The position numbers and the translations under genes are program-made. This document shows positions 45,489 to 61,417 of a stretch of DNA of 64,000 nt, piece by piece. Each line of letters starts with the position of its first letter. The stretch's first letter is position 1. Origin of the DNA: a virus. The stretch lies in the UHGV virus genome UHGV-0279745; one strand, 5' to 3'. The notes under the pieces were generated by a model that worked only from the letters and a program-made list of their open reading frames with translations, did no database searches and had not been told where the DNA came from.

Positions 45489-45887
45489 TTACCTCCCAGA
45501 ACACCCACCAGAACAACTACCTGAGCAGCCTGCAGAACAGTTTCCTACACACGAGTTAGAACAACTCCCCGTACAGCTTCCTGAACAGCCACCAGAACAG
45601 GTATTCGAACATCCACTACAGCCTGCACTACAACCTGATACACAGTTTGCAGAACAGGAAGAACCACAGCCGCCTGATGCGTTCCCTGTACAACCACCAG
45701 AACAGCTCGAACAGGTCCAGCTACAGCTCCCACCACAGTCATAGTGGTTGCGAGCTTGCCCACCGAATAAGTCTGCGTTGTTCGTCGCTTTCCCACGAAT
45801 ATAGTTTTGTACTGCACCCGTATTCTTCAATGCAGTGTTGTCAATGTTATTTAGCCGCGCTTGTAGCGCAGGTAATCCAATTGCCAT
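45489..45887 (-). CDS. Cys/Gly/Ser-rich CxxxC-repeat protein B
   Basis: Strong SD (AAGAGGTGA); ~45-aa N-terminal region then DCGGSCSWTCS and ~20 CxxxC-spaced Cys. Confidence 0.65.
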   Translation of the reverse strand: MAIGLPALQARLNNIDNTALKNTGAVQNYIRGKATNNADLFGGQARNHYDCGGSCSWTCSSCSGGCTGNASGGCGSSCSANCVSGCSAGCSGCSNTCSGGCSGSCTGSCSNSCVGNCSAGCSGSCSGGCSGR

Positions 45888-45897
45888 TTTTCACCTC

Positions 45898-46293
45898 TTA
45901 GGTTGGGCCAGAACAGCCACCAGAGCAAGCACCAGAACAACCCGTAGAACAACGGCCCGAGCAAGCACCCCCACAGGTCCCACTGCAACCTGAGCAGCCA
46001 CCGGAACACGTTGAACTACATCCAGTACACTGGTTACCGCACGCAGAGGAGCAGCTACCTACACACACTGACGTACAGGTGCCCGAACAACTCGTACAGC
46101 CATGCGTACAACCGTTTGAGCACGTCCAGCTGCAACTCCCCCCGCAGTCTAACCGACTTGGCGTCCAACCCGAAAAAGTGTCGGCGGCATTATGTGCTTT
46201 CGACGCAACTTGCGGATCAACACGTGGGCCAGTTGCCATTTGGTTCTCTACGTTGGTGATTCGGTCACGTACATTTTTAACACTGATCGCCAT
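45898..46293 (-). CDS. Cys/Gly/Ser-rich CxxxC-repeat protein A
   Basis: N-terminal MAISVKNVRDRITNVENQ... then DCGGSCSWTCS and a CxxxC-repeat core; first gene after the minus-strand terminator. Confidence 0.65.
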   Translation of the reverse strand: MAISVKNVRDRITNVENQMATGPRVDPQVASKAHNAADTFSGWTPSRLDCGGSCSWTCSNGCTHGCTSCSGTCTSVCVGSCSSACGNQCTGCSSTCSGGCSGCSGTCGGACSGRCSTGCSGACSGGCSGPT

Positions 46294-46304
46294 CACGTAT
46301 CCTT

Positions 46305-46360: not shown

Positions 46361-47560
46361 TTATTTCGTACCCGCTTCTGCCTGAACGTCATCACGGGAC
46401 GTCAAGTTAGCGTTAACGTGTACTGAAGCCTGAACCACACCACCGTATTTCTTGTGGAGATAGCCTGTGTGTGGGTTATCTGCCGCAATATGGTTTTGCA
46501 GGTTCTGATTCGCCTGACTGATCGCGTTCGTGTTATTCGCGACCTGTTGTTTAAGCGCATCCAAGTTTTGTTGCAGATTATCAATTTTCTGATCGGACTC
46601 ATTACCCCGCTGTTCTAACGCAGCAATGCGCTGAATCGCTTGATTGAGTTTGGTGCTCAGATCGTTGATATTTTTCTGTAACTGTAACACTAGCGAATTT
46701 AGGTTCGCCAATGCCAATGCCATTTTCTGGTAGTTTTGTGCAACGATGTTAAGTTGGTCGTTCCACGCTTCCAAAGATTTGACAACAGCATCAATACGTT
46801 TTCCTAACGCTTCATCCGCTTTCTTCAACGCATTAATATCAGTAATGGTTGCATCGATGGCAGACTGTACGTCACGGATAAGTGCACGGATCTCCGTTTC
46901 TGTTAACCCGTTAACCTGGTGAATATCCAGATGGTGGACGTTACCCGTGGCGTTAATGTGCGCGTTCAGCGCGTCCAGGAAATCGTTTTTCAGGCTTTCG
47001 AGAATCGCTTTGATGTTCTCAAGCTGTACAGCATCGCCCGCCGTTATCGCATCTTTAATGCCAGCGAGCACTGTAATGATATATTCGAAGCCGTAAATAT
47101 CGCCGACGTCTTTATACGTCGGTGCCGACGGAAATGTATCAGGAACATTTCGCAAGTCTTTAAAGCCAACAGTTCGATTATCGAGATTCAACTCAGCAAT
47201 CGCCTGTTCTATCGCAGTCACGTTTGCCGACTGCGGACCCCCGACTACTTGCGCCGATACCGTGATATCGGTCGGAATCGCGGTGTTCGTTACAACAACC
47301 GCCATTACCACTTCCCGGTTCTTCGTCAATTTCTCGTAAGCCGGGTGTGCAAAAATCAACTCATAGTCCGTTCCGCGCTCATACGTCGCATCGGGGCGGT
47401 TAGCAACCCGCAAGCGGAACGTATCAGCATAAAACGGACCGTCAGGAAAAGCAAACGCACGGTTAACTTTACCTGTGCCTAACGTAACCTGACGCTCCAC
47501 GGCGTTAGAGGTTAGGGTTCCCGTTAAATCTAAAGGGTATTGGTATACAATGGAGGCCAT
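46361..47560 (-). CDS. fibritin-like coiled-coil fibre protein
   Basis: N-terminal domain shared with the three giant fibre proteins (PDGPFY...GTDYELIF); long Asn/Gln/Leu/Ala-rich heptad region; start trimmed to ATG 47560 after AAGGAGAG. Confidence 0.7.
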   Translation of the reverse strand: MASIVYQYPLDLTGTLTSNAVERQVTLGTGKVNRAFAFPDGPFYADTFRLRVANRPDATYERGTDYELIFAHPAYEKLTKNREVVMAVVVTNTAIPTDITVSAQVVGGPQSANVTAIEQAIAELNLDNRTVGFKDLRNVPDTFPSAPTYKDVGDIYGFEYIITVLAGIKDAITAGDAVQLENIKAILESLKNDFLDALNAHINATGNVHHLDIHQVNGLTETEIRALIRDVQSAIDATITDINALKKADEALGKRIDAVVKSLEAWNDQLNIVAQNYQKMALALANLNSLVLQLQKNINDLSTKLNQAIQRIAALEQRGNESDQKIDNLQQNLDALKQQVANNTNAISQANQNLQNHIAADNPHTGYLHKKYGGVVQASVHVNANLTSRDDVQAEAGTK

Positions 47561-47600
47561 GGCCACTCTCCTTAATCCGAGACGTCCTTGTCTCGTGGCG

Positions 47601-50600
47601 TTAAGATGTAAACATAAGATTGAACTGGAGCTTATCGATATCGCGGGTTTGTGCTGGGTTAACCGCATCGTACGTGGTTGCCACGTAGACCGTTAATGTC
47701 CCGTCAGCAAACGAAGTTTTCACCGGTGGCGTAGTCCCTGTCTGTCCATCAGTTACAATGACGACAGGTTGAGCCGGGAGTTGATGGAACTGACCCTTAA
47801 CCGCTTTATACACCAAACCAGATTGCGCTGATAACTCCGTGTCGGTATAGACGATAAACGGCGTGTCGATATCTGTCTGTTTAATGACAGTGTTCGTCTC
47901 AACGTCAATCAGCTGAACAGCACCGAACTTCGTACGGTAGCTATCGTATTCATTTTTTGGAATGACAAACGTAGCATGTACACGGACTTCTTCGGCGGGC
48001 TTAAATCCGGCGTGTTCTTTTTCCAGATAGCTGTTAGCAGTTAACGTTACTGTCTGTTCAGTCATCGTACCACCAGACTGGTTTAACCCGTAACGAACTT
48101 GGGTTATACCTGTCGGAGCCGCAAGCCTGATTTTTAGTCTACGGTTAGCGGTGCCGGGATTACCAGGCACTCTAACACGCAGGCTCAAAGCCAGATATGC
48201 ATTCGTACCGGTAGTCGGTTTCGTATACGCACCCAACCACTTCATATTCGCGGTTGCCGCTTGACTGTTCTCAGAAGCAGTAGCCGCTACAACGTTTGCA
48301 GCGACCGCTTTCTGCCAGAACTGGTCAGCGCAGTTCTCATACGCTACTCTACCGATACTTTTATAACCTGCATAGGTTTCCTGTATCGGCAGATTGGGGC
48401 GTGTTGTGATCCCGCTCAACGCATTCCATCTCTGACCATCGACATACCCCGCACCATTGCTCGCGGATGCCGTGGGGGCTTTCAGCGGTTGGTTAACCAA
48501 GGTTTGGAGTGGACCCGTTTTTCGATCGTACGCCGCTGCAACGTCGTGCTGATCTCTAACAGCAGCGTGTTCTTCTAATTCACGAACCCTGCCTAACCGT
48601 TTCACTTTATCGATGTTAATAGCAACTATGCGCTTTTTATCGGTTGTAACTGTACCAACAAATAATCGCGAAGTCGTATCCGGCAGCTTTTCCAGCCCGA
48701 TCCGATATTGAGCTTTCGAACCTACAAGAGCAGCATGAACATAGAACGTCTGGTTAGCATGGTTTTCTGGGAATTCGTTGCTTAAATCCACCGACCACGT
48801 CGGTAATGTATAGCTATTACTACCGAAATCTAACCTGACCTCTTCCGTCAAGTATAGAATCCAACCTTCCGCAGTCTCCACGCCTGCAATAATAACCGCC
48901 TGCCCCGCTGTTGAGAATGTGGTATCATTAACGAACTCTTCGACTGTATATGCGTTACCTGAACAGAAAACGCGGTCAGCTTTAGAGAAAATTCGTGCCA
49001 TCTTGTCCCAATTACCCGCACCCATGTAACAACCAGATTCTGGGTTGTGGGCAGGAGCCATCTGACGCAACTGTGACTTACCGGGAACGCGAGTCCAACC
49101 CGACCCAGGGTTAAAGGTATACTTCGCAGCGTAACCCAAAGCATTTAGGTCCCCGATATTCCGTATTGTCAGCGTATAAGGCAACCATAGACCGAAGTTT
49201 ACACCGTCGGCAGAAGCAAAAATTGGCTGGCCTACACGTCGCGTTTTATTGCCCGCTTCTTCCCTCAGAGACTGATAACTTAAGCCGTAATCAAGGTCTA
49301 AGAACCAATCAACGAGTTTGAAAGTAGCCGAGTTAAAACGTAGATAACCGTTTTCTTTGGTCGGACTTACCATGAAGTAATAGATGTCGAGAACTCGACG
49401 TCCGTTACTCAGGGTTTTCATACATGAGACTTGTAATAAGTCGAACTCACAAACAGTGTTAATGCCTAGCAACCAGAGCGCAAACAACGCGTTGCCGCTT
49501 TGGTGTGCTGCACTGATGCGTTCGTTCGCGTAACCGTTTGCTTGACCAGATGGTGCACCGTCGACAATCATCCTAATCATCTTCTGGCGATCCGCTTCCT
49601 CTAACGTCAGCCGTTCTGATGACAGGGCAAAGTTACCGTAGATGTTTCGATATGGGAAGGTTTCCGCTTTCGTCAAATACCAACCGTTTAATTGCCCGTG
49701 ACGCTCCTCAGGAGTCATGCAAGCAGCCATACAGCTTAACTGTTCGTAAAGGGTTGCATCAACTTCTCGACGGTTGTTGTTCGGACCATAACCACTATAT
49801 CCGGGAACGTCATAAGGTTTACTTGGGTCAACTTCTACTTCGATCGTATAGCGGTTGCGCGGATTGGATAGCCAAACCTTATTCGAACCACCAATACCGA
49901 CAGGATGAGAAAGACCGATTGTATAGATAGAACCGCGACCTTTATCCCATGTAAATGTTGCTTCGCCTGAGGTATTGTTTGGGTTATCATAACGCAGATA
50001 ATCAAAAAACTCTTTGCCTTGCGTACTTTTAATAGTAACGTTCGGCATCTGGTCCGCATCGTTAATCTGCCAGCAGGAAAGCATCATTCCCGAGACATTA
50101 GGTTTAGCATACGTCGCAAAACAACGATTGTTTGCTTGGCCGCCACCCCACTTACGACTGGTTTCTACAGTTGAGCCATCCGCGAACGTCAGTGTGGTAG
50201 TATCAACCTTAATGGGGAAACGTTCGGCACCCTCTAACGTAACTCTGCCCGTTAACGTATCGATTGTGAAACTTGTTGACCATTGACGGAAATTAATCGT
50301 CGAACCGTCGGCAGCCGCAAACCACACGGTGGGTACATGGTTCACACGAATCACGCTGTCGCGCACCGCACAAGCATGGCTACATTCTGGACCGTGAACA
50401 AAACTGTGACCGATTGTCCATTTAGCCCGTGCCTCTGGCGGGTAATACGTAAAGAACTGACCAGTCTGCGACTCTTCGGTCTTCTGACCAATTCGTAAAC
50501 AGAGGTTATCTCCGAATTGCCCCATTTCTCCGGTTAGGGTTACACGTTCAAATTCTAACTCAGTATTGTTAGTCAAATCGGCTTTACGTAAACGCCATGC

Positions 50601-52784
50601 CGCCACGGCATAAGCAGAGTTATTTACCGTGGAACGAAGAAGATAAACGTGGTCGTCAACTAACACAACATCGTCGGCTTCTGGCCAAGGATTCCAGGTT
50701 TGTTCCACAGTACCGCTGGGGTTGCCATTACGGTACTTAGGCATTGTAACACGACACACCACCGTGTGTTTACTGTGGTCCATCGAACCATTGAACAACA
50801 CCAAATAACGGTTATTGTCAGAACCCAGACAAATAATCGCTTCCTGACCACCGATCAATATCGCTTTTAAGGTCACCCCAGGGTATTTACTCATCCCAAC
50901 AGGATGGTATTTCACCGAAGTTTGCTGAGGGTTCACAAACACATTCGACGTATTGATATCAGCATAGCCGTAGTAAATAGCCTCTGTACCAGGTACACCA
51001 TTAGAAGCATTACGTAACGAATAAACTTTACCTTGTTGGAATCCTACAACGCCTTTCTGATAGGACTGGTTCTTTGTAAAACCTGAATAATTACCGAGCG
51101 CCGGAATGGGTAAGAAGTTTTTGTTACCGAACTTCGCCCCACCGACAGTCCACGCAGGTAAGATGGTATTCAGTTTATCAGAAACTTTCTTGATCTCTTT
51201 TGCGAACAACCACCCTTGACGCGAAGTGGCAGCTTTATCGTTCGTGGTATCAATCGCATCCCACAACTGTAAGATACCATCCACAGTCGCACTGCCAATC
51301 GGGACATTATCCAAATCGGCGGTAGTGTGCGTGTGCTCCTTCACACTTTTATTTTTCAGCACATTCGCTAACGCTTTTGTTACCGGTTTAGCGATCGGCA
51401 TGGTGTTATCCATCTTATCGATACCGAAATCGGTTTTCGTTAAGGTTAACACCATTTTATCGCCCGTCTTAACAAACCCTTTACCGTTAACCGTATAGTC
51501 ATCGTCAACGTACAGGTCCAAGCGGTCTTTTAATTCGGTCACCGCCTTTTGGGAAATAGCAGTGCCTAGTGCTACGGATGTTGCGATATTCGTAATCGAA
51601 AACACCCCATAAACCGACTCGGTTGCTGTGGGAATATTCGCGTTCAACGTTAGCGGATTAGACTGCTTCGCCGTACCGTACGGTTTTACGCTGTCTGATG
51701 GTTTGAAATAGGCATTCGCTTCAAGTAACGTTACAGACGTCAGGTACATGTTCACCATTTCTGGTGTAACCAAATACACAGAGTTGTAAACCGGCGCTAA
51801 TACATCCTGCTCTGACCCAGAGTGTACCCAAAGCGTATTCAGTCCCGCACTAAATTCAACCGCTAAACCCGATTCGTTGTTGTCCTGGTCCGCTTTAATC
51901 ACTAACGGTTGCGGTGAGGTAATTAACCACTTATCACCACGGATACTGATAATGTGCCCGCCTGCGGTTTTAAACGTCAGTTCGTTACCGTTCGTGCTCC
52001 CCCATCGACCGTAAACAGTGCCGAGGGCTTCACCCATTAACTGATCAACGTCTGACTGCTCAATACCCGCCGAACCCATCAGCGTAGCCAACTCGTCAAT
52101 CGTCAGTCCAAACGCTTTTGTCGCGTCAACAGCACGTCCCAAAACCGGAAGGGCACCAACGTCAGTGGTCGTATACTGGTGTGCGTTAGGATTAAGGTGG
52201 TGTTGGTATAACTCCTCGTCGAAAACCTTTTTACCGTTCTCGTAAATCAGGTTAGTGACTTCGGTAAACGCTGCATCTAACTCTGTTGAACGTTGAACGA
52301 TTTTCTTACGGATGTCGTTTAACGCTTTAACAACCTCATCCCTCAGAATAGCTTCTTCTAAGTTAGCAGGAGGATCGATGGGTTGAATAACTGGCGCATA
52401 CGCCATTAACTCTGACCAGTCCACGTTACGTGGGTCTTTCAGGTCAGTACGAACTAAGAACTTTCCGATTTCAGATTGCGGTACACGATACTGGCGTGCT
52501 ACCCCTAAAATCTCATATTCGATTTCTGTTGCGGTCAGCAACATGAACCCGCCGTAGATCTGATCTTGCTCAGCTTCTGCGAGTTCTTTAAAGTAATAGC
52601 CTAAATAGTAGTCCAACCCCTCAATCAGAGTACGACGTCCGTTAGGCGCGGTATCGTCGGCTACTGTGAGTTTTAATCCGATACGATAAAAAGGTCCTTC
52701 AGGCGGAATGACCACATTAAATCGGTTAGGGTACGTCGCTGTGCTTAACGTACCGTTAAACTGCGCCGCGTCTTCTCTCGGCAT
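47601..52784 (-). CDS. giant virion fibre/spike-like protein (1727 aa)
   Basis: N-terminal domain (PPEGPFYRIGLKLTV...GLDYYLGYYF) shared with neighbouring fibre proteins; AGGAG SD. Confidence 0.75.
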   Translation of the reverse strand: MPREDAAQFNGTLSTATYPNRFNVVIPPEGPFYRIGLKLTVADDTAPNGRRTLIEGLDYYLGYYFKELAEAEQDQIYGGFMLLTATEIEYEILGVARQYRVPQSEIGKFLVRTDLKDPRNVDWSELMAYAPVIQPIDPPANLEEAILRDEVVKALNDIRKKIVQRSTELDAAFTEVTNLIYENGKKVFDEELYQHHLNPNAHQYTTTDVGALPVLGRAVDATKAFGLTIDELATLMGSAGIEQSDVDQLMGEALGTVYGRWGSTNGNELTFKTAGGHIISIRGDKWLITSPQPLVIKADQDNNESGLAVEFSAGLNTLWVHSGSEQDVLAPVYNSVYLVTPEMVNMYLTSVTLLEANAYFKPSDSVKPYGTAKQSNPLTLNANIPTATESVYGVFSITNIATSVALGTAISQKAVTELKDRLDLYVDDDYTVNGKGFVKTGDKMVLTLTKTDFGIDKMDNTMPIAKPVTKALANVLKNKSVKEHTHTTADLDNVPIGSATVDGILQLWDAIDTTNDKAATSRQGWLFAKEIKKVSDKLNTILPAWTVGGAKFGNKNFLPIPALGNYSGFTKNQSYQKGVVGFQQGKVYSLRNASNGVPGTEAIYYGYADINTSNVFVNPQQTSVKYHPVGMSKYPGVTLKAILIGGQEAIICLGSDNNRYLVLFNGSMDHSKHTVVCRVTMPKYRNGNPSGTVEQTWNPWPEADDVVLVDDHVYLLRSTVNNSAYAVAAWRLRKADLTNNTELEFERVTLTGEMGQFGDNLCLRIGQKTEESQTGQFFTYYPPEARAKWTIGHSFVHGPECSHACAVRDSVIRVNHVPTVWFAAADGSTINFRQWSTSFTIDTLTGRVTLEGAERFPIKVDTTTLTFADGSTVETSRKWGGGQANNRCFATYAKPNVSGMMLSCWQINDADQMPNVTIKSTQGKEFFDYLRYDNPNNTSGEATFTWDKGRGSIYTIGLSHPVGIGGSNKVWLSNPRNRYTIEVEVDPSKPYDVPGYSGYGPNNNRREVDATLYEQLSCMAACMTPEERHGQLNGWYLTKAETFPYRNIYGNFALSSERLTLEEADRQKMIRMIVDGAPSGQANGYANERISAAHQSGNALFALWLLGINTVCEFDLLQVSCMKTLSNGRRVLDIYYFMVSPTKENGYLRFNSATFKLVDWFLDLDYGLSYQSLREEAGNKTRRVGQPIFASADGVNFGLWLPYTLTIRNIGDLNALGYAAKYTFNPGSGWTRVPGKSQLRQMAPAHNPESGCYMGAGNWDKMARIFSKADRVFCSGNAYTVEEFVNDTTFSTAGQAVIIAGVETAEGWILYLTEEVRLDFGSNSYTLPTWSVDLSNEFPENHANQTFYVHAALVGSKAQYRIGLEKLPDTTSRLFVGTVTTDKKRIVAINIDKVKRLGRVRELEEHAAVRDQHDVAAAYDRKTGPLQTLVNQPLKAPTASASNGAGYVDGQRWNALSGITTRPNLPIQETYAGYKSIGRVAYENCADQFWQKAVAANVVAATASENSQAATANMKWLGAYTKPTTGTNAYLALSLRVRVPGNPGTANRRLKIRLAAPTGITQVRYGLNQSGGTMTEQTVTLTANSYLEKEHAGFKPAEEVRVHATFVIPKNEYDSYRTKFGAVQLIDVETNTVIKQTDIDTPFIVYTDTELSAQSGLVYKAVKGQFHQLPAQPVVIVTDGQTGTTPPVKTSFADGTLTVYVATTYDAVNPAQTRDIDKLQFNLMFTS

Positions 52785-52878
52785 CGTAAAGACTCCTACT
52801 TTTAAATAAAATGGATACCCCTCCCCGTTACAGGGAGGGGTTACCTACGGACACACAACTGCCCGCAGGCAGCCTGTC

Positions 52879-55800
52879 CTAAGTACGATCCCCTAACTGC
52901 TTCCCGTTAAGTTCTCGTTTCAGTACAGCCAAAATCCACTTCCACGCTTTACTCGTGATGTGGTACGGATTGCGTTTCTCCATTAAGAACTGACTTTCGC
53001 CGCTACGGAGTTCGAAGCTCTGCGCATTGAGTTGGTCTTGGCGAACACCTTTCTCGTCAGTGACATCTAACGAACAGGTAAAGTTAAGCTCGTAGCCTTC
53101 AGGATTATTACCCGGTGGTTCTAAGACAATATAAATGTCCTGCCCTACACGTAGGTCCTTTGGCGTAAGGGTAACTGCTTTACCTGTGTCCGCGCTGGTC
53201 GAAAGCGCAAACGGCACGCTATCGATAGCTGATACATACGCGTCCTTCCCAGCATCACCGATAATCACCTTACCCGGCCAGTTACACTTCACCGTTCCTG
53301 TCACTTTTGCAACACGGTACTGCTGTTTATCAGCACCTTGTGCAAAGCGTAAAATGAGTTTATGCCGATACCGGTTTGCGGCAGCTTTGGATGTACTCCA
53401 CTCATTGTTCCAGGATGCATGAAGTTCACCTTTCTTGGCCATCAAAGCACCACGAGACAGCTTACGTGGGAAGAATTGTGCCGGAAGTTGCCCTTCGTGG
53501 GAAATCGCTACACTCCCTTGTCCGGTTGGAAGTGCTATTGTTTCCGTAGGGCAATAATTTAACTCGTACACGTGTGTTGTAGGATCGATCAATTTCTGAT
53601 AGTAATCGCCGTCCTTACTGTCCGCTAACCAACCAACGGAAGAGTCCGTATACGATTCAAACAGTGAACGTAAATAGTGATACTTATCGATATCGATGTT
53701 ACCCGTTTTTGGATCGATCAGGGCATGGTTAATAGTGAGGAAACACTTCTCACTCAAACCATTAAACGCCAGCCCCACTCCGTCGCCGGTAAAATAGTCT
53801 ACCAGGTCAAATGGAAGCGTCATTTCTATTTGTCGCAAGTTGATAGTCGTTGAACCAAACTGCGAAAAAGATAGCGCTAAACGAAGTACACGAGTATTAA
53901 CATTATAACGATAACGAATCATCCCACGCGGCGCATGGTTCGCGGAGATCTTATCACCGTTTGGACCCCACCCAATTAAATCGAGTATTTCGGCGTTTGC
54001 TACTTCACCATTAAACAAAACGTCTTTAGTCGTGATTTCAACTGACGTTTCCCTTCCGGCATCCATCAACATCGAACCGTTATTCAACTCGAAGCTCTTG
54101 TGCCAAACTTCAGAAGTCGAACCAGCACCTACACCCACCTTACAAGTTTTACTAGTAAGGTTAATACGCACATAACGGCGTCCCACTGTACCACCCTGCG
54201 AGCTTGCGCACAAAATAAGATCAGGTGCCGCAGACAGTGCCTTGGTCCCTCCAATGTCATCAACATCGAAAACGAATGAGCCTTCGAACGTTGGTGCGTT
54301 ATTTTCCTTCGGGTTAAATGGCGTGAACCAACAATAAGGCGTCGCGCCCTCGGTTGAGAAAATCAACTCTAAGTCAGATTTAACATTTAATCCGTGGGAA
54401 TAAGAAAAGAGACCGCGACTTAAGGTACAAAGCGTTCCACCGCTTCCGCTACCTAAGGTTTTTCGATATATTAAAGCGCGGGGTTCAGCAATAGCACGGT
54501 TTAATAACGGCAACCGTGGGTTATCCGTTAACGTCCAGTCGACAGAACTGAGTCCGTGTGCTTTACGAGCGTCGATGTGCTCACTAACCTCGGTACTTTT
54601 CCCGAAATCAAACGTAGTTTCAAAACTCACGGTTTTATTCGAGTAAGATTCACCGGCAACAATATCAACGTAGCCGATATAACCGCGCTCAGGGTCAACT
54701 GCAATACTCTGAATTGGCTCAGTACGCGAATACAGAGAGCCTGTGAGCATGTTAACGTACAGATAATGACGAATGCCTACGTGTGTTGTAACGAACTCTT
54801 GGAGAAGCTCTACGTGCGTTTCAGGGCCACTGAAATAAACGGGGTAGTCACCGTCGTAAATTTCGAATTGCACCGCTGCGGATTTAGCCGTGTCGCTACA
54901 CTCAGCTTTAACCGCCACGGTGTAGTTTTCAACGTCTGCTGATGTTTCATACACTGCAACGAGCGGAGACTGGCCTGTGGCTGCCTGGATACCGTTAATG
55001 TAAACTGTAACCGGGCCACCCCCTGCGGCATAAACCCAAAGCTTCGGCTGGCGTGCTCTTACCCGCGTTTTGGCCAACACAGTAACAACTGACTGGTCAC
55101 CCATCTGTGAGGCAGTTTTACCTACCGGAACAGATTGGAAACCCATTAGTGGTGGTTCTTCAATACCTGTCCAGTTAATGCCCTTACCAGCACTCACTTT
55201 CCCCGTAGGCCAAGTCGTCTCAATTTGGTTGTTCGGTGAGAACCAGTTAAACATCGGCGTAGTTTGCAGGTCAATCGAACCTGTAACGGCGCTATCAGCT
55301 TTCGCACCGTTCAGCAAATAGAAATACTTCAAATCTTGAACGGAGATTGCCGTACCCTGACTATTAAAACGCCAGTCTGCACCTTTTACCGCAGCAAAAT
55401 CCGTTACCGACCCTTCTTTCGCGTTTGCAATCGCCGCAGCAACCACATCTAAACGCGCCGAAAGTTCTTTTAAGATGTTCGGTACCACTGCACGGTTTTC
55501 AACCAAACCGTTCTGGTTAGTTGCGTAACGACCGATACCGTAAACGGATTGCGAGGCTTTATAAATGCCTAGTTCCGACCAATCGTGATGGTGACCCGCA
55601 TCCGCTAAGCCGCTAAGCGCCGCATTTAACTCGGTAGACAACGGCTTGTCAACGTCTGCGGTGTTATCCGCTTGCCCTAACCCCAGATCAGCTTTCGTGA
55701 TTGTCCTGGAGCCGTCGTTCATCGGCTTACCGTTAATCATGGTCGTTTTAGCCACATACCCCGATAGGTCAGTCGAGTATGGTGCTAACGACGCCGGTGT

Positions 55801-57081
55801 TGCAGCAACCCCAGTCGTTTCTGTACCTTTACCTGTTTTAAGTTTAGCGACGCCTTTTTCGGCGGTTGTCGCTTTTGTTGGGTCGATAGTCCCGACAATG
55901 GGATCGGCGCGAGAACCTTTACCGGTAAAGCTAATCCCATTACGACCTTCAATGTACACCTTCGAATCGTCAGGGTCGCCACCGCCACCAGAACCCGCAT
56001 CTGGATCTTGTTGGTATTCCATCAACGCCGTGGTAGTCAGTAACGGGTTACCGTTCAGGGTGAGTTTGTTCATCCCTAAAGCATCGCCTGTTGACTCGAT
56101 GCGTAATGTGTTTTTACCGGCACGCCAATTAATGTAACGTCCTGCACCTGTGCCTTCCAGATGTCCTACCGCTAATACCACAGAACCGTTGGATTTTAAC
56201 GTAAAACCATCGTTAGCAAAAATGATTTCGGACTCACCGTTTTTCGAACGGAACTGTGCGCGGTTTCCTGACAGCGTACAGTTAAACACGCCCCGTACTT
56301 CCGAAGAAATCCAGTGAGAGATATACGTGTCGATAACTGACTGGGGTAAACGAAACGCTTTCAGCTCATCCGTCAGTGCTTTCAACTTTAACCCGTAGGC
56401 CATAAAGGTGTCGGGCGTTTTCAAGTTAACAGGATGCGCGTTAATCTGCGCGGATGTGGTTTCGTGCGGGTTCTTCGCTGCGATATGTGCTGGGTAGTTA
56501 AATGCTTCGATTTCTTTACCCAACGCAGTCACTAACGCTTTAACTTCAGCTAATTTGTCTTTAATTAGCTGGTTAGCGTCGTCGGTTTTCAATTCAATAT
56601 CGTGAACTGCCGACGCTAAATATTTTTTGTTCAGCAAATCCGCCCAGGACGTTGCTGCTGGCGTCGCTGGATATAACGATGGTCTACCGTCTAATAACAA
56701 CCAGTCAGCACTGACTGGGTTATTCAAATATTTCACCAGTTCATCGAGAATATCAACAAACGGGTCGTAGAACGTACCGCCGAGCATTTGTCCTTCAAAG
56801 GTTACGATACCCTTGATGGATGGGTTGATAAGGTGTACCCCACAATACACGTTGGCTGCTACCGAGTCATCCAGTTCCGTCAGCTGATATTGCAGTTCGT
56901 AGTCCACCCCACGACTCAGTGGGGTGGTTGAACCTGGTTGTCTGACGACCAAATCTTCAAAGAACGGGCGGTGGTCTAAAATCACCACCCGATCGTTGTT
57001 ATTTTCTGACCCGATGATACGCTCCTCTAAGAAGTGATTCTCGGCTTTCGTCCCCCGAGGATCGTAAGGATACGCTTTCAT
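52879..57081 (-). CDS. tail fibre protein (~1400 aa)
   Basis: Shared N-terminal domain; typical tail-fibre motifs (AEKGVAKLKT; TKADLGLGQADNTADVDKPLS); ATG 57081 preferred over TTG 57084. Confidence 0.8.
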   Translation of the reverse strand: MKAYPYDPRGTKAENHFLEERIIGSENNNDRVVILDHRPFFEDLVVRQPGSTTPLSRGVDYELQYQLTELDDSVAANVYCGVHLINPSIKGIVTFEGQMLGGTFYDPFVDILDELVKYLNNPVSADWLLLDGRPSLYPATPAATSWADLLNKKYLASAVHDIELKTDDANQLIKDKLAEVKALVTALGKEIEAFNYPAHIAAKNPHETTSAQINAHPVNLKTPDTFMAYGLKLKALTDELKAFRLPQSVIDTYISHWISSEVRGVFNCTLSGNRAQFRSKNGESEIIFANDGFTLKSNGSVVLAVGHLEGTGAGRYINWRAGKNTLRIESTGDALGMNKLTLNGNPLLTTTALMEYQQDPDAGSGGGGDPDDSKVYIEGRNGISFTGKGSRADPIVGTIDPTKATTAEKGVAKLKTGKGTETTGVAATPASLAPYSTDLSGYVAKTTMINGKPMNDGSRTITKADLGLGQADNTADVDKPLSTELNAALSGLADAGHHHDWSELGIYKASQSVYGIGRYATNQNGLVENRAVVPNILKELSARLDVVAAAIANAKEGSVTDFAAVKGADWRFNSQGTAISVQDLKYFYLLNGAKADSAVTGSIDLQTTPMFNWFSPNNQIETTWPTGKVSAGKGINWTGIEEPPLMGFQSVPVGKTASQMGDQSVVTVLAKTRVRARQPKLWVYAAGGGPVTVYINGIQAATGQSPLVAVYETSADVENYTVAVKAECSDTAKSAAVQFEIYDGDYPVYFSGPETHVELLQEFVTTHVGIRHYLYVNMLTGSLYSRTEPIQSIAVDPERGYIGYVDIVAGESYSNKTVSFETTFDFGKSTEVSEHIDARKAHGLSSVDWTLTDNPRLPLLNRAIAEPRALIYRKTLGSGSGGTLCTLSRGLFSYSHGLNVKSDLELIFSTEGATPYCWFTPFNPKENNAPTFEGSFVFDVDDIGGTKALSAAPDLILCASSQGGTVGRRYVRINLTSKTCKVGVGAGSTSEVWHKSFELNNGSMLMDAGRETSVEITTKDVLFNGEVANAEILDLIGWGPNGDKISANHAPRGMIRYRYNVNTRVLRLALSFSQFGSTTINLRQIEMTLPFDLVDYFTGDGVGLAFNGLSEKCFLTINHALIDPKTGNIDIDKYHYLRSLFESYTDSSVGWLADSKDGDYYQKLIDPTTHVYELNYCPTETIALPTGQGSVAISHEGQLPAQFFPRKLSRGALMAKKGELHASWNNEWSTSKAAANRYRHKLILRFAQGADKQQYRVAKVTGTVKCNWPGKVIIGDAGKDAYVSAIDSVPFALSTSADTGKAVTLTPKDLRVGQDIYIVLEPPGNNPEGYELNFTCSLDVTDEKGVRQDQLNAQSFELRSGESQFLMEKRNPYHITSKAWKWILAVLKRELNGKQLGDRT

Positions 57082-57094
57082 CAAAAAATTCTCC

Positions 57095-60000
57095 TTAATC
57101 GCGAATGATTACCGCCTGCACTTTATTGTTGGTGTCGATAAACGACATTACGCGCTCCTTGTTAAGATAAGGAGGTATCGGTAACGCAGCGTAATCCGCC
57201 AGGTTGTTATTAAATTCAGTTGCCACTAACGCATTAAGCGTTTCGGGGTCTGAACTGACACCGGTCAATTCCATAACGCGCACACGATTTAATGAGGAAT
57301 AGTTGCTAATATAGTCTAACAACGTACCATAGACTTTATTCGCGGTTGCGCTGTCTGCCGTAGAACGGATGTTGGCACGAACCTCATCCTCATAAAGTCC
57401 CCCTAAACCGTAGTAAATAGGGGTATACGGATCGTTAACGATAGGTGCGATATTGAACCCTGTTAGACGGTCAGTTAGAGGGATTTTCTGCGTAGCTCCC
57501 CCTGCTGCCGTGCAACTTACGTATTTATCAGTCGCAGATAAAAACACCACGATGGTATACGTAGTGCCCGCTAAGGTCAATGTTGCGTTAAACGTTATTG
57601 CGTTATTTGCAGCACGGGTGTGGGTAAACGTTACGTCAGGTTGTAACGTATTCCACGGTGCAGGCGTAACACGCTTCGTTGGTGTGAAACCTAACACTAC
57701 CGATTTCCCGCTACCGAAGTTCAAACCGAACCCTGCGTAACAATATTCACCGTTGCTGTCAGTTAAACGATAACCACGAGTGATAAGTAACGACAACCGC
57801 ATAAACTCGCCGTCGGTGTTTTTCCAACAACCTAAAACAGTTTCTAGCACCGTGCCGGTTTTTGCGTTGCTTTCTGTTTCCCAACTGACTCGCATTCCTG
57901 CGTTCTTAAAAGCTGGGAACATGTTGTGGATAAACCCGTGTAGGTTATCGCTTACCCCTTTCGCGTCAAAAATCCACTTGGATGCGAGCTGGTCGTATTT
58001 CACCCCGTCTAAAGCTTTATACTGCCCACCGGCAACATAACGCCAATCTGCTTCACCGCGTACTACTGCCTGGAGTCCAGAAGCCCAGCAAGGCGCGCCT
58101 ACCGTTAAGTTAGCTAACCCAAGCGCTGCACGTGACGCGGAGCGCTGAATGTGTGCGTTGTCATCGGCTTTATGATCTTTCAGTTCACGGAAATCACCCA
58201 ACCGTGTGACATTACGCATTTCCGTAACGAACACCTCAGAAATGTCGTTAACACCAATCAACCCTACACGCGTCATGGTATCCGTTTCAGCCTGACTGTA
58301 GCTGTCGTGGACAATATACTTCGCTTTGTTGTCAACGATGTCAACAAAAATCCCTGCGTAGATTTCTGTATTCAATTTCGGAAAACGTTCACTGACGTTA
58401 ATCGTCATCAACGGAACGTCGTACGTTTCACCACCGATAAAATACGTTGAAGCTGGAAGCGTGACCAGAATTTTGTCTTTGACCGTAAGGTCTATTAAGT
58501 CGTTACCAGACTCACCAAAACGTATAATGTCAAGACGTGCCTCCGAGTCAACGCCGCCGACAGCGCGCTCCAATTTTTCAATCTGGGAAGTCTGCGCCAT
58601 TACCACACTCCCATCGAGTGCTAAAGTCGCATCATCCACATCCAGACCAAATTTAATCAGACCACGTTGCGCTGTGGTTGCGTTCCCAGTACCAAAAGCG
58701 GTAAACGGGTGTTGGTGAACTTTAGGCGAGTATTTATCTAACTCCGCACGTTGTGCTGTAGAAATCGGTAAATCAACATCAGGCGTATTCGCAACATTAC
58801 CTAAACCAAAGGTAATCTTATCGATAGTGACCGAGCTGGTAAGTTGCATGTCGTTAATGTACGATTTAACTGCAACTAACTTACCGGTGAACTCAGCATC
58901 GAGTTTTTTAATCAGTGCTGGCGTTGCTGCAAGGTTTTCAGCGGTACCGAACTCATCGGTCAACTGCCAAGCTGCCAGAGCTGTTGTATCAGTCGCGGTA
59001 GGGAGAATAAAGGTCGCTACGAACGGCGAGGCTTTTATCCCGCTACCGGTGATCGTAACCGTTGTTGTCGAGTTTGCGTAGAATAAACCTGTACCACCTG
59101 CGGTATTGCCTGGTAGATACGGGGCCACGGTGGTGGGGTCTAAAAGTTTTTTACCACGCCACAACAATCCTCGGTCATCAGGGTATAGCACAAGCTGGTT
59201 AGTACCTGCTTGGAACGTTACGGGGTTGTTACCCACGTTAACATCAGTTGAACCTTGGCCAATAAACTTGATGGATTTCGGATCAACGACAAACTGAGCG
59301 CCTAAACGTGTCTCGTCAACAACATCCGGTGCTTTCTTAATGGTAACCGTGTTACCTTTGTTTTGCGAACTAATGGTAACGGCGTCGGCAACATTATTGA
59401 TCAGCGATTTAAAGTGGTGCTGATTCTCTAATGCTTCTAACGCGGCGTCCATGTTATTGAAGTTAATCCGACCGCTATACGTTTTACTGTTTACGGTAAT
59501 AACGACGTCAAACACATTCCCTGTACGCTTCAGTTGAAAACGTAGCGCAAAATCCCCATCCGGTATTGCCGGATTAGGAGCTTGCGAAATATACCGAACT
59601 GCCGGTACCGGACTACCGTAACCGTGCAACGCCAGTTCGATAGTAAGAGTACCGGACCAGACTTCACCGCTAATCTCTACGTACTTACCGGAGTTACTAC
59701 CAGGATTTTCGTAGAAACGTAAACCAACCCTACCGACCGCTTCATTACCAGACGCTGTTTTACGTCCAGTAACAATAAAGTCAATATCTTGCAGGTTGGC
59801 AGGCACCGCATTAAAGTTAGCACTGAAACCGCTTTTCGCTCCTGTATAACGAAGCGCACCGTGATATCTGTGACCACTACTAACATAGCTTTCGCTAAAA
59901 TAAGGACTCACGTATTTCGACATCGAGACCGGATCAACTTCCGTCGTGAACGAAGTAAAACCCGGAAGTGTGGTAATCGTGCCGTTAACGTTCTTGCTCG

Positions 60001-61417
60001 CCGATTCACGAAGCAGTTTTTTCTGTGCGGTTAACGTTGCTTGTGTTGGGTACTTAGCATTAACGTAATCCGTTAACTGCTGTTTCGTTTTCCCGTAAGC
60101 TAACGCGGCATCCGACGCAATACCATTCAGTTCTAACGCACGGATCGGACCCCACGTATCGGTGTGCGGGTTGTCCTTACGTGTAACGTGTTCGTGTGCA
60201 GGCGCGTTACGATACAGCTGCTCAACTAACTGATGGTATTTAACTATTAACTGGTAAACATCGTTATCGACGTCAGGTTCTGGTGCGCCGGGTAAAGAAC
60301 GAATTTGAATATAATCGTTTTCGGCCGCATACCAGTTTAGATTAATGTTCGTTTTAAACTTCAACCATTTAGCAACATCCGTTTTCGAATACCCTGCCGA
60401 GAACTCATCAGGCGGCGTATCGACATTGAATGTGTAATCCATGGTCTGTTTATTTGTTTTTACTACGATGACGTAAACACCGTTTCCGGGTTGACGGGTT
60501 ACACTAAAATCGATATCGTTTTTTAACTCATCGTCAGTTAAACCGTTGATTAACGTATAATCGTAGTTTGTTGAACCGCTACCAATAGCGACCGTTAAGA
60601 CCAGTGAGATTTTGCGCTGTTTTAGCTGCAACCGTAGAATGCTTGCCCCGCCGTTAGCATAACAGAGCATCCAATCGATCTGTTCGTTTGGATTCAATTT
60701 CGTCATGTCTGGCAGAATAGCAGGAATTCTGTGTTTCACTGACAGGGCGTAGTCGTTAAAGGTTGCAGTTTTATAACTCAAGCTATAACGATGACGGGTA
60801 GTGTTGTAGGTGAAGCCACCTTTATTGTCGTATACGGCATACTGCTCGGAAGTGATAACCTTGCTATTAGCACGGTATTCTAAATCCAGGGTATTACGCG
60901 CGATGGGGTTAAGCCGACTCACGACTTCCCCTAACGAATCGCCTAATCCAGCAATAGCCTGCATTAATTCCAGTTCACCTTTCCAATTCTCCCAATCGAA
61001 CTGGATATCGACCGGCGGAAAGTAAACGTCCCCGATGACGGTGTCCCACTGACACGCAGACGGGTATTTATCTTTATTGAGTTCGCGTTCTGCGGTAATC
61101 TGTTGTTGGGTAGCCTGACCACAACCAACGGCGTGGTAATCTACCGTGAAATTCGATTTGTATTTGTCGTTAACAATCCAAATCATCCCGTGAATGAGAT
61201 AGGCTGTGCGCAACATACCGGTCTCGTACGGGTGTGTAATAACGTAATCGTCGCCTAAGGTCAGTGTTTTGCCGCCGCTCTTGACCACCAGGGATGTGGT
61301 GAAAAAAGGGGCGTGGGCAGGTACCAACATTCGGTATTTCGTACCAATGACGGCGACCGCTTCACCGGTTATTTTATTCCCCGGTTTTTTGAAGTGTGGG
61401 TCTAGGACGACAGCCAT
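57095..61417 (-). CDS. tail fibre protein (1440 aa)
   Basis: Shared N-terminal domain; tail-fibre motif ITFGLGNVANTPDVDLPIS; AGGAG SD; first gene of the minus-strand operon. Confidence 0.8.
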   Translation of the reverse strand: MAVVLDPHFKKPGNKITGEAVAVIGTKYRMLVPAHAPFFTTSLVVKSGGKTLTLGDDYVITHPYETGMLRTAYLIHGMIWIVNDKYKSNFTVDYHAVGCGQATQQQITAERELNKDKYPSACQWDTVIGDVYFPPVDIQFDWENWKGELELMQAIAGLGDSLGEVVSRLNPIARNTLDLEYRANSKVITSEQYAVYDNKGGFTYNTTRHRYSLSYKTATFNDYALSVKHRIPAILPDMTKLNPNEQIDWMLCYANGGASILRLQLKQRKISLVLTVAIGSGSTNYDYTLINGLTDDELKNDIDFSVTRQPGNGVYVIVVKTNKQTMDYTFNVDTPPDEFSAGYSKTDVAKWLKFKTNINLNWYAAENDYIQIRSLPGAPEPDVDNDVYQLIVKYHQLVEQLYRNAPAHEHVTRKDNPHTDTWGPIRALELNGIASDAALAYGKTKQQLTDYVNAKYPTQATLTAQKKLLRESASKNVNGTITTLPGFTSFTTEVDPVSMSKYVSPYFSESYVSSGHRYHGALRYTGAKSGFSANFNAVPANLQDIDFIVTGRKTASGNEAVGRVGLRFYENPGSNSGKYVEISGEVWSGTLTIELALHGYGSPVPAVRYISQAPNPAIPDGDFALRFQLKRTGNVFDVVITVNSKTYSGRINFNNMDAALEALENQHHFKSLINNVADAVTISSQNKGNTVTIKKAPDVVDETRLGAQFVVDPKSIKFIGQGSTDVNVGNNPVTFQAGTNQLVLYPDDRGLLWRGKKLLDPTTVAPYLPGNTAGGTGLFYANSTTTVTITGSGIKASPFVATFILPTATDTTALAAWQLTDEFGTAENLAATPALIKKLDAEFTGKLVAVKSYINDMQLTSSVTIDKITFGLGNVANTPDVDLPISTAQRAELDKYSPKVHQHPFTAFGTGNATTAQRGLIKFGLDVDDATLALDGSVVMAQTSQIEKLERAVGGVDSEARLDIIRFGESGNDLIDLTVKDKILVTLPASTYFIGGETYDVPLMTINVSERFPKLNTEIYAGIFVDIVDNKAKYIVHDSYSQAETDTMTRVGLIGVNDISEVFVTEMRNVTRLGDFRELKDHKADDNAHIQRSASRAALGLANLTVGAPCWASGLQAVVRGEADWRYVAGGQYKALDGVKYDQLASKWIFDAKGVSDNLHGFIHNMFPAFKNAGMRVSWETESNAKTGTVLETVLGCWKNTDGEFMRLSLLITRGYRLTDSNGEYCYAGFGLNFGSGKSVVLGFTPTKRVTPAPWNTLQPDVTFTHTRAANNAITFNATLTLAGTTYTIVVFLSATDKYVSCTAAGGATQKIPLTDRLTGFNIAPIVNDPYTPIYYGLGGLYEDEVRANIRSTADSATANKVYGTLLDYISNYSSLNRVRVMELTGVSSDPETLNALVATEFNNNLADYAALPIPPYLNKERVMSFIDTNNKVQAVIIRD

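What the first reader, a model, noticed from the sequence alone, without database searches (positions are those of the whole stretch)
46361..61417. Four consecutive fibre-type proteins share one N-terminal attachment domain, three of them over 1400 aa
The fibritin-like protein and the three giant proteins all begin with a related ~60-aa domain (...P.GPF[YF] / P.FF ... L.[LV] ... G.DY.L.[FY]), implying a common docking site with divergent distal parts. Encoding about 4,600 aa of such proteins in tandem suggests an elaborate multi-fibre adsorption apparatus.
Basis: seen in the sequence. Interest (0 to 1): 0.55.

Follow-up and report, generated by a model that had tools for sequence, protein, structure and literature searches.

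The report
Jumbo-phage baseplate fibre gene cluster
Four neighbouring genes of an uncultivated SPN3US-like giant phage encode baseplate fibre proteins that share a known N-terminal anchoring domain (the phiKZ gp131 type), so the cluster is a new example of a described system; the anchors probably assemble six to a fibre base.

Summary
Four consecutive minus-strand genes, A (399 aa), B (1727), C (1400) and D (1440), begin with a homologous N-terminal domain of about 140 aa, not about 60.

A profile built only from phiKZ gp131/133/134/135 N-termini picks exactly these four out of 593 six-frame ORFs (E 6e-20, 9e-17, 1e-13, 6e-3; best noise 0.7).

The genes are orthologs of Salmonella phage SPN3US gp167-170 and Erwinia phage Asesino gp187-190. 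They sit next to a divergently transcribed homolog of phiKZ gp130. A 2026 cryo-EM atlas shows phiKZ fibres hanging under gp130, each from six gp131-like N-domains plus a six-helix bundle.

So the shared attachment domain is already known: 201phi2-1 paralogs, SPN3US 'paralog family C', and the phiKZ atlas.

New here:
- A belongs to the family.
- The N-domains split into two ancient types (bootstrap 98%).
- Each of 12 genomes examined carries either one or three genes of each type, never two.

This fits a 3+3 hexameric base, here A×3 + B + C + D. That stoichiometry is inferred, not shown.

No enzymatic domain was detected. The modelled distal part of B looks lectin-like (β-sandwich and β-propeller) at low confidence. 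Verdict: ordinary member of a known kind, moderate interest.

The parts
46361..47560 (-). Gene A, 399 aa. Type I gp131-like N-domain, then helices, then a coiled coil of about 140 residues. Ortholog of SPN3US gp167 and Asesino gp187.
   Evidence: 77% identity to Asesino gp187; 50 homologs. AF2 model. BLASTP to phiKZ gp135 6e-13, gp134 2e-5, gp133 1.5e-4.
47126..47560 (-). N-domain of A (residues 1-145).
   Evidence: Alignments. phiKZ HMM 5.7e-20. AF2 β-sandwich, residues about 17-105, pLDDT 82-92.
46484..46900 (-). Coiled-coil helix of A (residues 221-359).
   Evidence: AF2 gives a single helix, pLDDT about 77-93. Only generic coiled-coil Pfam and NCBIfam hits.
47601..52784 (-). Gene B, 1727 aa. 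Type II N-domain, the most divergent of the four. Ortholog of SPN3US gp168 and Asesino gp188.
   Evidence: PHROG 7449 full length. 56% identity to Asesino gp188. SPN3US gp168 is a tail protein with an amber mutant (PMC5105663).
52365..52784 (-). N-domain of B (residues 1-140).
   Evidence: Non-B HMM 23.2 bits versus at most 8.0 in 2000 shuffles. The B~C BLASTP alignment starts at residue 20.
52879..57081 (-). Gene C, 1400 aa (ATG at 57081; an alternative TTG at 57084). Type II N-domain. Ortholog of SPN3US gp169 and Asesino gp189.
   Evidence: PHROG 8078 full length. 52% identity to Asesino gp189. BLASTP to the phiKZ gp131 N-terminus 1e-8.
56647..57081 (-). N-domain of C (residues 1-145).
   Evidence: phiKZ HMM 9.4e-17. 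hhalign A 8-226 ~ C 4-215, probability 95%.
57095..61417 (-). Gene D, 1440 aa. Type II N-domain. Ortholog of SPN3US gp170 and Asesino gp190. Same position as phiKZ gp131, first after the gp130 homolog.
   Evidence: PHROG 7557. 46-49% identity to Asesino gp190. BLASTP to the phiKZ gp131 N-terminus 2e-8.
61013..61417 (-). N-domain of D (residues 1-135).
   Evidence: phiKZ HMM 9.5e-14.
59318..59920 (-). Insertion of about 200 aa in D (residues about 500-700), specific to this lineage. β-rich in the sequence; its fold was not modelled.
   Evidence: Gapped against both the Asesino and SPN3US orthologs. Relatives with a 1440-aa D exist (L005; P0073).
51249..51848 (-). Shared fibre module 2 in B (residues 313-512), carrying a 'DNT-x-D-x-KP-x-S ... 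H-x-H' type motif.
   Evidence: hhalign B 313-512 ~ D 728-928 and B 47-506 ~ C 49-518. PHROG tail-fibre families hit residues 399-539.
55525..56205 (-). Shared fibre module 2 in C (residues 293-519).
   Evidence: hhalign C 293-519 ~ D 709-923, probability 96.7%. BLASTP 1e-11.
58649..59293 (-). Shared fibre module 2 in D (residues 709-923).
48546..48917 (-). Shared module 3 in B (residues 1290-1413).
   Evidence: hhalign B 1290-1413 ~ D 967-1089, probability 94.8%. BLASTP 7e-7.
58151..58519 (-). Shared module 3 in D (residues 967-1089).
61486..62748 (+). Divergently transcribed homolog of phiKZ gp130 and SPN3US gp171 (420 aa). It is the outer-baseplate protein under which fibres attach in phiKZ.
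   Evidence: BLASTP to phiKZ gp130 7e-12 over the full length. PHROG 3337. The same divergent arrangement occurs in 10 of the 11 other genomes checked; the window is the twelfth genome. SPN3US gp171 is an essential tail protein (PMC5105663).

Best explanation
The four genes encode the peripheral baseplate fibres of an uncultivated SPN3US/Erskinevirus-like jumbo myovirus of the phiKZ-like (chimallivirus) group.

What the proteins look like:
- Each starts with a gp131-like β-sandwich N-domain of about 140 residues followed by an α-helical segment. This is shown by homology for all four. The fold is shown by an AF2 model for A only; the helix in B, C and D is inferred from alignment to A and from the sequences.

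How they attach (inferred by homology with phiKZ):
- In phiKZ, cryo-EM shows twelve attachment sites under gp130. Each holds six such N-domains and a six-helix bundle. These N-domains therefore plug the fibre into the outer baseplate.
- The gp130 homolog is the divergently transcribed neighbour at 61486-62748.

Stoichiometry (inferred from comparative genomics, not demonstrated):
- The N-domains belong to two ancient types. A is type I, like phiKZ gp133-135. B, C and D are type II, like gp131.
- Every genome examined has one or three genes of each type.
- I therefore infer that each fibre base is a 3+3 hexamer. Here that would be a coiled-coil homotrimer of A plus one chain each of B, C and D. 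This mirrors phiKZ, where one gp131 trimer pairs with gp133+gp134+gp135.

Distal parts:
- B, C and D continue through shared fibre modules and end in divergent, fast-evolving distal domains.
- These are β-sandwich and β-propeller, lectin-like in the B model, and presumably bind host surface glycans. This is a low-confidence inference.
For: Homology of the N-domains:
- A phiKZ-only HMM finds exactly the four ORFs.
- BLASTP: A~gp135 6e-13, C~gp131 1e-8, D~gp131 2e-8, and the 420-aa neighbour ~gp130 7e-12.
- PHROG 2163 hits all four N-termini.
- In all 150 best representatives the domain lies at the extreme N-terminus. There are 3208 clusters with E<=1e-3, and protein lengths run from 149 to 1911 aa.

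Published support:
- The phiKZ atlas reports six gp131-like N-domains plus a six-helix bundle under gp130, 12 fibres, and a candidate complex gp131x3+gp133+gp134+gp135 (PMC13250141).
- SPN3US gp168-170 form 'paralog family C', are absent from tailless particles, and gp171 is an essential tail protein (PMC5694885, PMC5105663).

Two-type pattern:
- The type I | type II split has 98% NJ bootstrap support, and B, C and D each have a pVa-21 ortholog (100/77/95%).
- Gene counts (type I, type II): Goslar, Xoo-sp14, Moabite, PhiEaH1 and AgentSmith 1,1. phiKZ, 201phi2-1 and Noxifer 3,1. SPN3US, Asesino, pVa-21 and the window 1,3.
- Whole-genome scans give exactly 4 N-domain genes in SPN3US and exactly 2 in Goslar.

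Mass spectrometry:
- Goslar: gp025 (type I) is about equal to gp029 (type II), 57.7 vs 50.1 estimated copies where the gp130 homolog gp030 is 12.0.
- SPN3US spectra per kDa: gp167 1.90 versus gp168/169/170 at 1.08/1.41/1.00, with the 12-copy portal at 0.93.

Other:
- Identity to orthologs falls from N- to C-terminus, the usual pattern for receptor-binding proteins.
- B and C are colinear to about residue 510, and D shares the same modules.
Against: - Nothing here measures stoichiometry directly.
- The phiKZ hetero-hexamer itself is a 'candidate' model, docked at 4.4-4.6 Å.
- SPN3US spectral counts put A only about 1.5-2.4 times above B, C and D, where 3 times is predicted. That is also roughly compatible with equimolar homotrimers.
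- The Goslar copy estimates (50-58) exceed the predicted 36.
- The one-or-three rule rests on only two independent triplications. For most genomes it rests on 40-kb loci, not whole genomes.
- D carries about 500 aa of insertions between the helix and module 2, which complicates an in-register B:C:D trimer.
- The helix after the N-domain is modelled only for A.
- The distal parts of C and D were not modelled.
Confidence: 0.7

Rival explanations
1. Each of A, B, C and D forms its own homotrimeric fibre, and the shared N-domain lets all four dock independently on equivalent baseplate sites. With two trimers per hexameric site, the result would be a multi-fibre apparatus with four fibre kinds in about equal copy number.
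For: - Phage fibres and tailspikes are typically homotrimers.
- Multi-RBP phages such as CBA120 and ΦKp24 reuse N-terminal adaptor modules (background knowledge; ΦKp24 paper listed).
- The type I protein of Goslar carries a Peptidase_S74 chaperone domain typical of homotrimers (annotation).
- SPN3US spectral counts for the four proteins differ by less than 2.5-fold.
- The distal parts of B, C and D are unrelated and differ in length.
Against: - It does not explain why genomes carry exactly one or three genes of each N-domain type and never two.
- Three type II fibre kinds cannot be spread evenly over 12 sites arranged with 6-fold or 3-fold symmetry (my inference from the phiKZ architecture).
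- In phiKZ the two classes of site look 'almost indistinguishable', and each was fitted with all four paralogs.
- gp167 is consistently the most abundant of the four.
Confidence: 0.22
2. The large proteins are mainly enzymatic tailspikes (capsule or LPS depolymerases, esterases) rather than binding fibres. The N-domain simply anchors the enzymes to the baseplate.
For: [quoted passage not shown]
Against: - There are no Pfam or NCBIfam families and no PDB sequence match for B, C or D.
- No β-helix was predicted in B.
Confidence: 0.07
3. The N-terminal resemblance is chance or compositional, and the four genes are unrelated virion proteins.
For: Several pairwise BLASTP E-values are only 0.04-0.05.
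Against: Independent profiles (phiKZ-only, PHROG 2163, non-B HMM) give E values down to 1e-20. The four ORFs rank first in every search, and shuffles never approach the real score. Position at the N-terminus and synteny are conserved in 12 genomes.
Confidence: 0.01

Closest known systems
phiKZ tail-fibre complex gp131 / gp133 / gp134 / gp135 anchored under gp130 (Sycheva 2012; structural atlas, Nat Commun 2026, PMC13250141)
   Same: - Homologous N-terminal domain, followed by a helix (modelled here for A only).
- Four N-domain genes in a row, immediately next to a divergently transcribed gp130 homolog.
- Virion tail location, shown for the SPN3US orthologs by mass spectrometry.
   Different: - The paralog balance is reversed. 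phiKZ has three short type I genes (457-463 aa) and one type II gene (gp131, 771 aa). This phage has one short type I gene (A) and three giant type II genes (1400-1727 aa).
- No sequence match to the gp131 C-terminal seven-bladed propeller.
- There is no gp132-like small gene here.
Salmonella phage SPN3US gp167-gp170 ('paralog family C' = gp168/169/170; Ali 2017, Thomas 2016) and Erwinia phage Asesino gp187-190
   Same: Direct orthologs in the same order and orientation, with the same neighbours: the gp171/gp130 homolog on one side and a pair of radical-SAM genes on the other. A is 77-80% identical. B, C and D are about 46-56% identical overall.
   Different: - The distal halves are strongly diverged (16-40% identity).
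- D carries an extra insertion of about 200 aa.
- The published family C did not include gp167. Here its N-domain is shown to belong to the family, as type I.
Pseudomonas phage 201phi2-1 gp216-gp220 paralog family (GenBank annotation)
   Same: Annotated paralogous virion proteins next to a gp130 homolog, with the same N-domain.
   Different: phiKZ-type balance (three type I, one type II) and much shorter proteins.
N-terminal anchor domains of podovirus fibres and tailspikes (T7 gp17 N-terminus 7BOZ/7EY9, Carin-1, LME-1, P-SCSP1u, CBA120 TSP4 N-terminus)
   Same: Same functional logic: a small N-terminal β-domain docks a trimeric fibre on the tail. These are the recurrent best non-coiled-coil structural neighbours of the A model.
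T4 fibritin (wac)
   Same: A long trimer-type coiled coil follows an N-terminal attachment region.
   Different: No sequence or Pfam match, and no foldon. A attaches (by homology) at the baseplate periphery, not the neck.

Membership tests
gp131-like N-domain fibre proteins of phiKZ-like jumbo phages | N-terminal domain homologous to that of phiKZ gp131/133/134/135 | tested here: met
   phiKZ-only HMM: A 5.7e-20, C 9.4e-17, D 9.5e-14, B 5.6e-3, noise 0.71. B confirmed by the non-B HMM and shuffles. BLASTP.
gp131-like N-domain fibre proteins of phiKZ-like jumbo phages | Domain sits at the extreme N-terminus and is followed by an α-helix (six-helix bundle in phiKZ) | tested here: inconclusive
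   The N-terminal position is met for all four. The helix is seen in the AF2 model of A (helices 153-173 and 177-203). For B, C and D it is inferred only from alignment to A and from the sequence. Bundle formation was not testable.
gp131-like N-domain fibre proteins of phiKZ-like jumbo phages | Encoded in a cluster adjacent to a divergently transcribed gp130 homolog | tested here: met
   61486..62748 (+) matches phiKZ gp130 at 7e-12. The same layout occurs in phiKZ, 201phi2-1, Noxifer, SPN3US, Asesino, pVa-21, Goslar, Xoo-sp14, Moabite and PhiEaH1.
gp131-like N-domain fibre proteins of phiKZ-like jumbo phages | Located in the virion at the baseplate periphery or fibres | not testable with these tools
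   Literature only. SPN3US gp167-171 were detected in virions, and gp168-170 are missing from the tailless mutant. phiKZ cryo-EM.
gp131-like N-domain fibre proteins of phiKZ-like jumbo phages | C-terminal seven-bladed β-propeller as in gp131 (PDB 4GBF). This is a feature of gp131 itself, not of the family. | tested here: not met
SPN3US paralog family C (gp168/169/170) | Orthology to SPN3US gp168, gp169 and gp170 in conserved order | tested here: met
   Full-length PHROGs 7449, 8078 and 7557. Synteny. N-domain tree clades.
T4 fibritin (wac) family | Sequence match to fibritin or its C-terminal foldon domain | tested here: not met
   Pfam and NCBIfam give only generic coiled-coil hits below cut-off. 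PDB sequence search finds no fibritin.
Tailspike depolymerases / SGNH esterases | Recognisable catalytic domain (β-helix pectate-lyase-like, sialidase, SGNH, Peptidase_S74 chaperone) | tested here: not met
T7 gp17-type N-terminal fibre adaptor fold | Significant structural superposition of the N-domain | tested here: inconclusive

The most novel reading that the evidence does not exclude
The fibre base of all phiKZ-like phages is an obligate 3+3 hexamer of two ancient N-domain types. Either trimer can be a homotrimer (one gene) or a heterotrimer of three paralogs.

In the SPN3US/pVa-21 lineage, including this phage, the type II trimer has become a heterotrimer of three giant chains, B:C:D. Each of the twelve fibres would then carry three different receptor-binding heads on one stalk, braced by a coiled-coil trimer of A. 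Heterotrimeric fibres of this size, with three unrelated distal heads, would be an unusual design among described tailed-phage fibres.
Probability: 0.4. Interest if true: 0.6.

Novelty: new member of a known kind. Interest (0 to 1): 0.35.

Why it matters
The fibres decide which bacteria a jumbo phage can attack. Knowing which part is the invariant anchor (N-domain plus helix, about 200 aa) and which part is exchangeable tells engineers where to swap receptor-binding modules in SPN3US-like phages of Salmonella, Erwinia and E. coli.

The two-type, one-or-three gene-count rule gives a simple, testable prediction for fibre stoichiometry across the whole chimallivirus group. It also extends the phiKZ cryo-EM model to lineages whose peripheral baseplate could not be resolved, such as Goslar.

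The anchor domain has no Pfam or NCBIfam model, yet it occurs in more than 3000 protein clusters. A curated model would improve annotation of many 'hypothetical' or 'virion structural' proteins.

Tried and rejected
- Word-indexed homolog search with the 12-sequence N-domain alignment returned only 8 short fragments. It was useless for breadth and was replaced by the exhaustive representative search.
- The search for related loci in IMG/VR with the N-domain alignment returned only 8 close SPN3US-like loci, so the paralog census used GenBank phage records instead.
- PDB sequence searches of all four proteins gave nothing meaningful. The phiKZ atlas models (9XQD and others) were not among the listed matches in this PDB copy.
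- Self-BLAST for internal repeats in A-D found none. The visually similar β-rich segments in D were not confirmed as repeats.
- Exact-sequence look-up of A found no record. The closest DNA is IMG/VR UViG_3300029126_000001, at 96% over 20 kb.
- The RAY core-genome preprint's 'gp131' is an unrelated helicase.
- The Goslar cryo-EM preprint could not resolve the fibres. Only its mass-spectrometry table was usable.
- SPN3US spectral counts were examined as a stoichiometry test and judged unable to separate 3:1:1:1 from 1:1:1:1.
Full report
**1. What is there**

The interval holds four consecutive minus-strand ORFs:
- A: 46361..47560, 399 aa
- B: 47601..52784, 1727 aa
- C: 52879..57081, 1400 aa
- D: 57095..61417, 1440 aa

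The mechanical ORF for A starts at 47668, but its first 36 codons overlap the end of B. The family profile starts at residue 36, and all orthologs are 399-400 aa. The real start is therefore the ATG at 47560. Gaps between the genes are about 10, 94 and 40 nt, consistent with one transcription unit.

**2. Where the window comes from**

Megablast finds only patchy matches of about 76% to Erwinia phage Asesino and relatives, and to SPN3US-like Salmonella phages. The same four-gene block occurs in:
- Asesino gp190-187
- SPN3US gp170-167
- a Logan assembly
- several IMG/VR contigs, one of which is 96% identical over 20 kb

The window is therefore from an uncultivated SPN3US/Erskinevirus-like jumbo phage. 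Protein identity to Asesino is 77% for A, 56% for B, 52% for C and 46-49% for D.

**3. Checking the observation**

Pairwise BLASTP of the N-termini is weak (8e-7 to 0.05), so I tested with profiles.
- PHROG 2163 hits the N-terminus of all four (1e-104, 2e-42, 3e-30, 6e-18).
- An HMM built only from phiKZ gp131/133/134/135 N-termini was searched against all 593 six-frame ORFs of the window. It ranks A, C, D and B first (5.7e-20, 9.4e-17, 9.5e-14, 5.6e-3). The next ORF scores 0.71.
- B is the outlier. An HMM of every non-B N-domain scores it 23.2 bits, against a maximum of 8.0 in 2000 shuffles, and E = 9e-5 in the window. The B~C BLASTP alignment (4e-19) also starts at residue 20.

The domain is about 135-145 aa rather than about 60. 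No fifth copy is present in the window.

**4. What the domain is**

*Published work.*
- The SPN3US papers define 'paralog family C' as gp168/169/170. They describe these as low-abundance tail proteins similar to phiKZ gp131 and absent from tailless particles. They identify gp171, an essential tail protein, as the phiKZ gp130 homolog (PMC5694885, PMC5105663).
- The 201phi2-1 GenBank record annotates gp216-220 as paralogs next to a gp130 homolog.
[quoted passage not shown] The candidate hetero-hexamer is gp131×3 + gp133 + gp134 + gp135.

*Results here.*
- A matches phiKZ gp135, gp134 and gp133 (6e-13, 2e-5, 1.5e-4).
- C and D match the gp131 N-terminus (1e-8, 2e-8).
- The divergently transcribed neighbour at 61486..62748 matches gp130 over its full length (7e-12).

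The layout of a gp130 homolog followed by the paralog row is the same as in phiKZ. The 'shared N-terminal attachment domain' is thus a described feature.

Two things are less well documented. First, gp167/A belongs to the family; it carries no paralog label in the SPN3US supplementary table. Second, no Pfam or NCBIfam model covers the domain. Yet a four-sequence profile finds 3208 representative clusters at E<=1e-3, and 1892 at E<=1e-10. In all 150 best hits the domain lies at the N-terminus, in proteins of 149-1911 aa.

**5. Structure**

An AF2 model of A was built from 41 sequences (mean pLDDT 75).
- It gives a confident β-sandwich at residues about 17-105 (pLDDT 82-92).
- Helices follow at 153-173 and 177-203.
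- One long helix spans 221-359, which is the coiled coil behind the 'fibritin-like' impression.

**6. Architecture beyond the anchor**

Profile-profile comparison of the ortholog triplets and BLASTP give these shared segments:
- A 8-226 ~ C 4-215
- B 47-506 ~ C 49-518
- 'Module 2': B 313-512 ~ C 293-519 ~ D 709-928. It carries a motif common in tail-fibre PHROGs.
- 'Module 3': B 1290-1413 ~ D 967-1089

D has large insertions between the helix and module 2. One of about 200 aa (residues about 500-700) is absent from Asesino and SPN3US.

Identity to orthologs falls from 71-86% in the first 100 residues to 16-40% at the C-termini of B, C and D. This is the usual signature of receptor-binding proteins.

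- β-sandwich carbohydrate-binding or accessory modules, phage distal tail protein (Dit) and receptor-binding domains

I read this as lectin-like binding domains, with low confidence. C and D were not modelled.

**7. How the paralogs probably work together (new inference)**

I collected the cluster from other phiKZ-like phages and scanned six-frame ORFs with the N-domain and gp130 HMMs.

*Two types.* A neighbour-joining tree of 28 N-domains splits into two clades with 98% bootstrap support.
- Type I: A/gp167, phiKZ gp133-135, Goslar gp025 and others
- Type II: B, C, D, phiKZ gp131, Goslar gp029 and others

B, C and D each pair with a Vibrio phage pVa-21 ortholog (100, 77 and 95%). The triplication is therefore old.

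*Gene counts (type I, type II).*

| Genomes | Type I | Type II |
|---|---|---|
| Goslar, Xoo-sp14, Moabite, PhiEaH1, Bacillus phage AgentSmith | 1 | 1 |
| phiKZ, 201phi2-1, Noxifer | 3 | 1 |
| SPN3US, Asesino, pVa-21, this window | 1 | 3 |

- Two genes of one type was never seen.
- Whole-genome scans confirm exactly four N-domain genes in SPN3US and exactly two in Goslar.
- A gp130 homolog lies divergently adjacent in all genomes but AgentSmith.

*Interpretation.* This pattern is what a 3+3 hexamer predicts if each trimer is either a homotrimer (one gene) or a heterotrimer (three genes). phiKZ would be gp131₃ + gp133·134·135. This phage would be A₃ + B·C·D.

*Mass spectrometry is compatible but not decisive.*
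- In Goslar, gp025 is about equal to gp029 (57.7 vs 50.1 copies on the scale where the gp130 homolog is 12.0).
- In SPN3US, gp168, gp169 and gp170 have portal-like abundance (1.08, 1.41, 1.00, against 0.93 for the 12-copy portal).
- gp167 is 1.5-2.4 times higher than those three, where the model predicts 3 times.

**8. Rivals**

It fits the general rule that fibres are homotrimers. It does not explain the one-or-three pattern or the excess of gp167.
- *An enzymatic tailspike role.* This is not supported by any family or fold match, but it cannot be excluded for C and D.
- *Chance similarity.* This is excluded.

**9. Verdict**

The system is a new member of a known kind, namely the gp131-like fibre cluster of phiKZ-like phages and orthologs of SPN3US gp167-170. 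The added value is the assignment of A to the family and the two-type 3+3 hypothesis. That hypothesis is testable by multimer prediction, absolute quantification or local cryo-EM refinement.

Noticed in passing
window 20784-25385 (+) and 25385-26167 (+): A fifth fibre of a different, conventional kind. It is a 1533-aa mosaic tail-fibre protein with no gp131-like N-domain. Its best matches are E. coli phage fibres (P1 S, P2 H, lambda-like stf) rather than jumbo phages. A T2-type Gp38 adhesin follows immediately (PF05268, 6e-69). This suggests an Escherichia-like host and horizontal acquisition. Goslar also carries a P1 S-like fibre (gp090)..
   Followed up: partly
window 35606-36454, 36468-36944, 39608-40144, 40215-40745 (all +): At least four DUF7941 (PF25613) genes lie near the fibre block. 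The 2026 Goslar cryo-EM preprint proposes that this family forms a 'fibre cloud' on the peripheral baseplate. A GH108 endolysin (37006-37596), a DUF1353 gene and a DUF4376 gene lie among them..
   Followed up: partly
window 41992-43314 and 43298-44221 (-): Two adjacent radical-SAM genes (PHROG 1802) lie just downstream of the fibre block. The pairing and position are conserved in SPN3US, Asesino and the Logan relative L005. Their function is unknown, and a role in modifying a virion or fibre component is conceivable..
   Followed up: no
window 45489-45887 and 45898-46296 (-): Tandem paralogs of 132 aa each (both PHROG 6085, unknown function, no Pfam hit for the copy tested, 45489-45887) lie directly downstream of gene A..
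   Followed up: no
window 59318-59920 (-), residues about 500-700 of D: A lineage-specific domain insertion of about 200 aa, absent from the Asesino and SPN3US orthologs. In addition, D residues 200-400 are 69-71% identical to SPN3US but only 15-28% identical to Asesino. This indicates module exchange inside the fibre gene..
   Followed up: partly
window 47561-47668 (-): The mechanical ORF for gene A has a 36-codon N-terminal extension that overlaps the 3' end of gene B. It is not conserved in orthologs and is almost certainly not translated..
   Followed up: yes
window 37128-57560 versus L016 (IMGVR_UViG_3300029126_000001, 225 kb): The closest DNA relative found is an IMG/VR uncultivated viral genome, 96% identical over 20.4 kb. 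Isolated phages are far more distant, at about 76% in patches..
   Followed up: partly
N-domains of A-D (47126-47560, 52365-52784, 56647-57081, 61013-61417): The gp131-like N-terminal domain has no Pfam-A or NCBIfam model, although a four-sequence profile finds 3208 representative clusters (E<=1e-3) among 1.84 billion proteins. Some GenBank records label family members 'yomR'..
   Followed up: partly
window 63215-63904 (-): A baseplate assembly protein homolog (PHROG 3216, 8.6e-73, matching profile positions 95-316 of 325). It lies in the same relative position as in SPN3US and Asesino, so the window ends inside the baseplate module..
   Followed up: no
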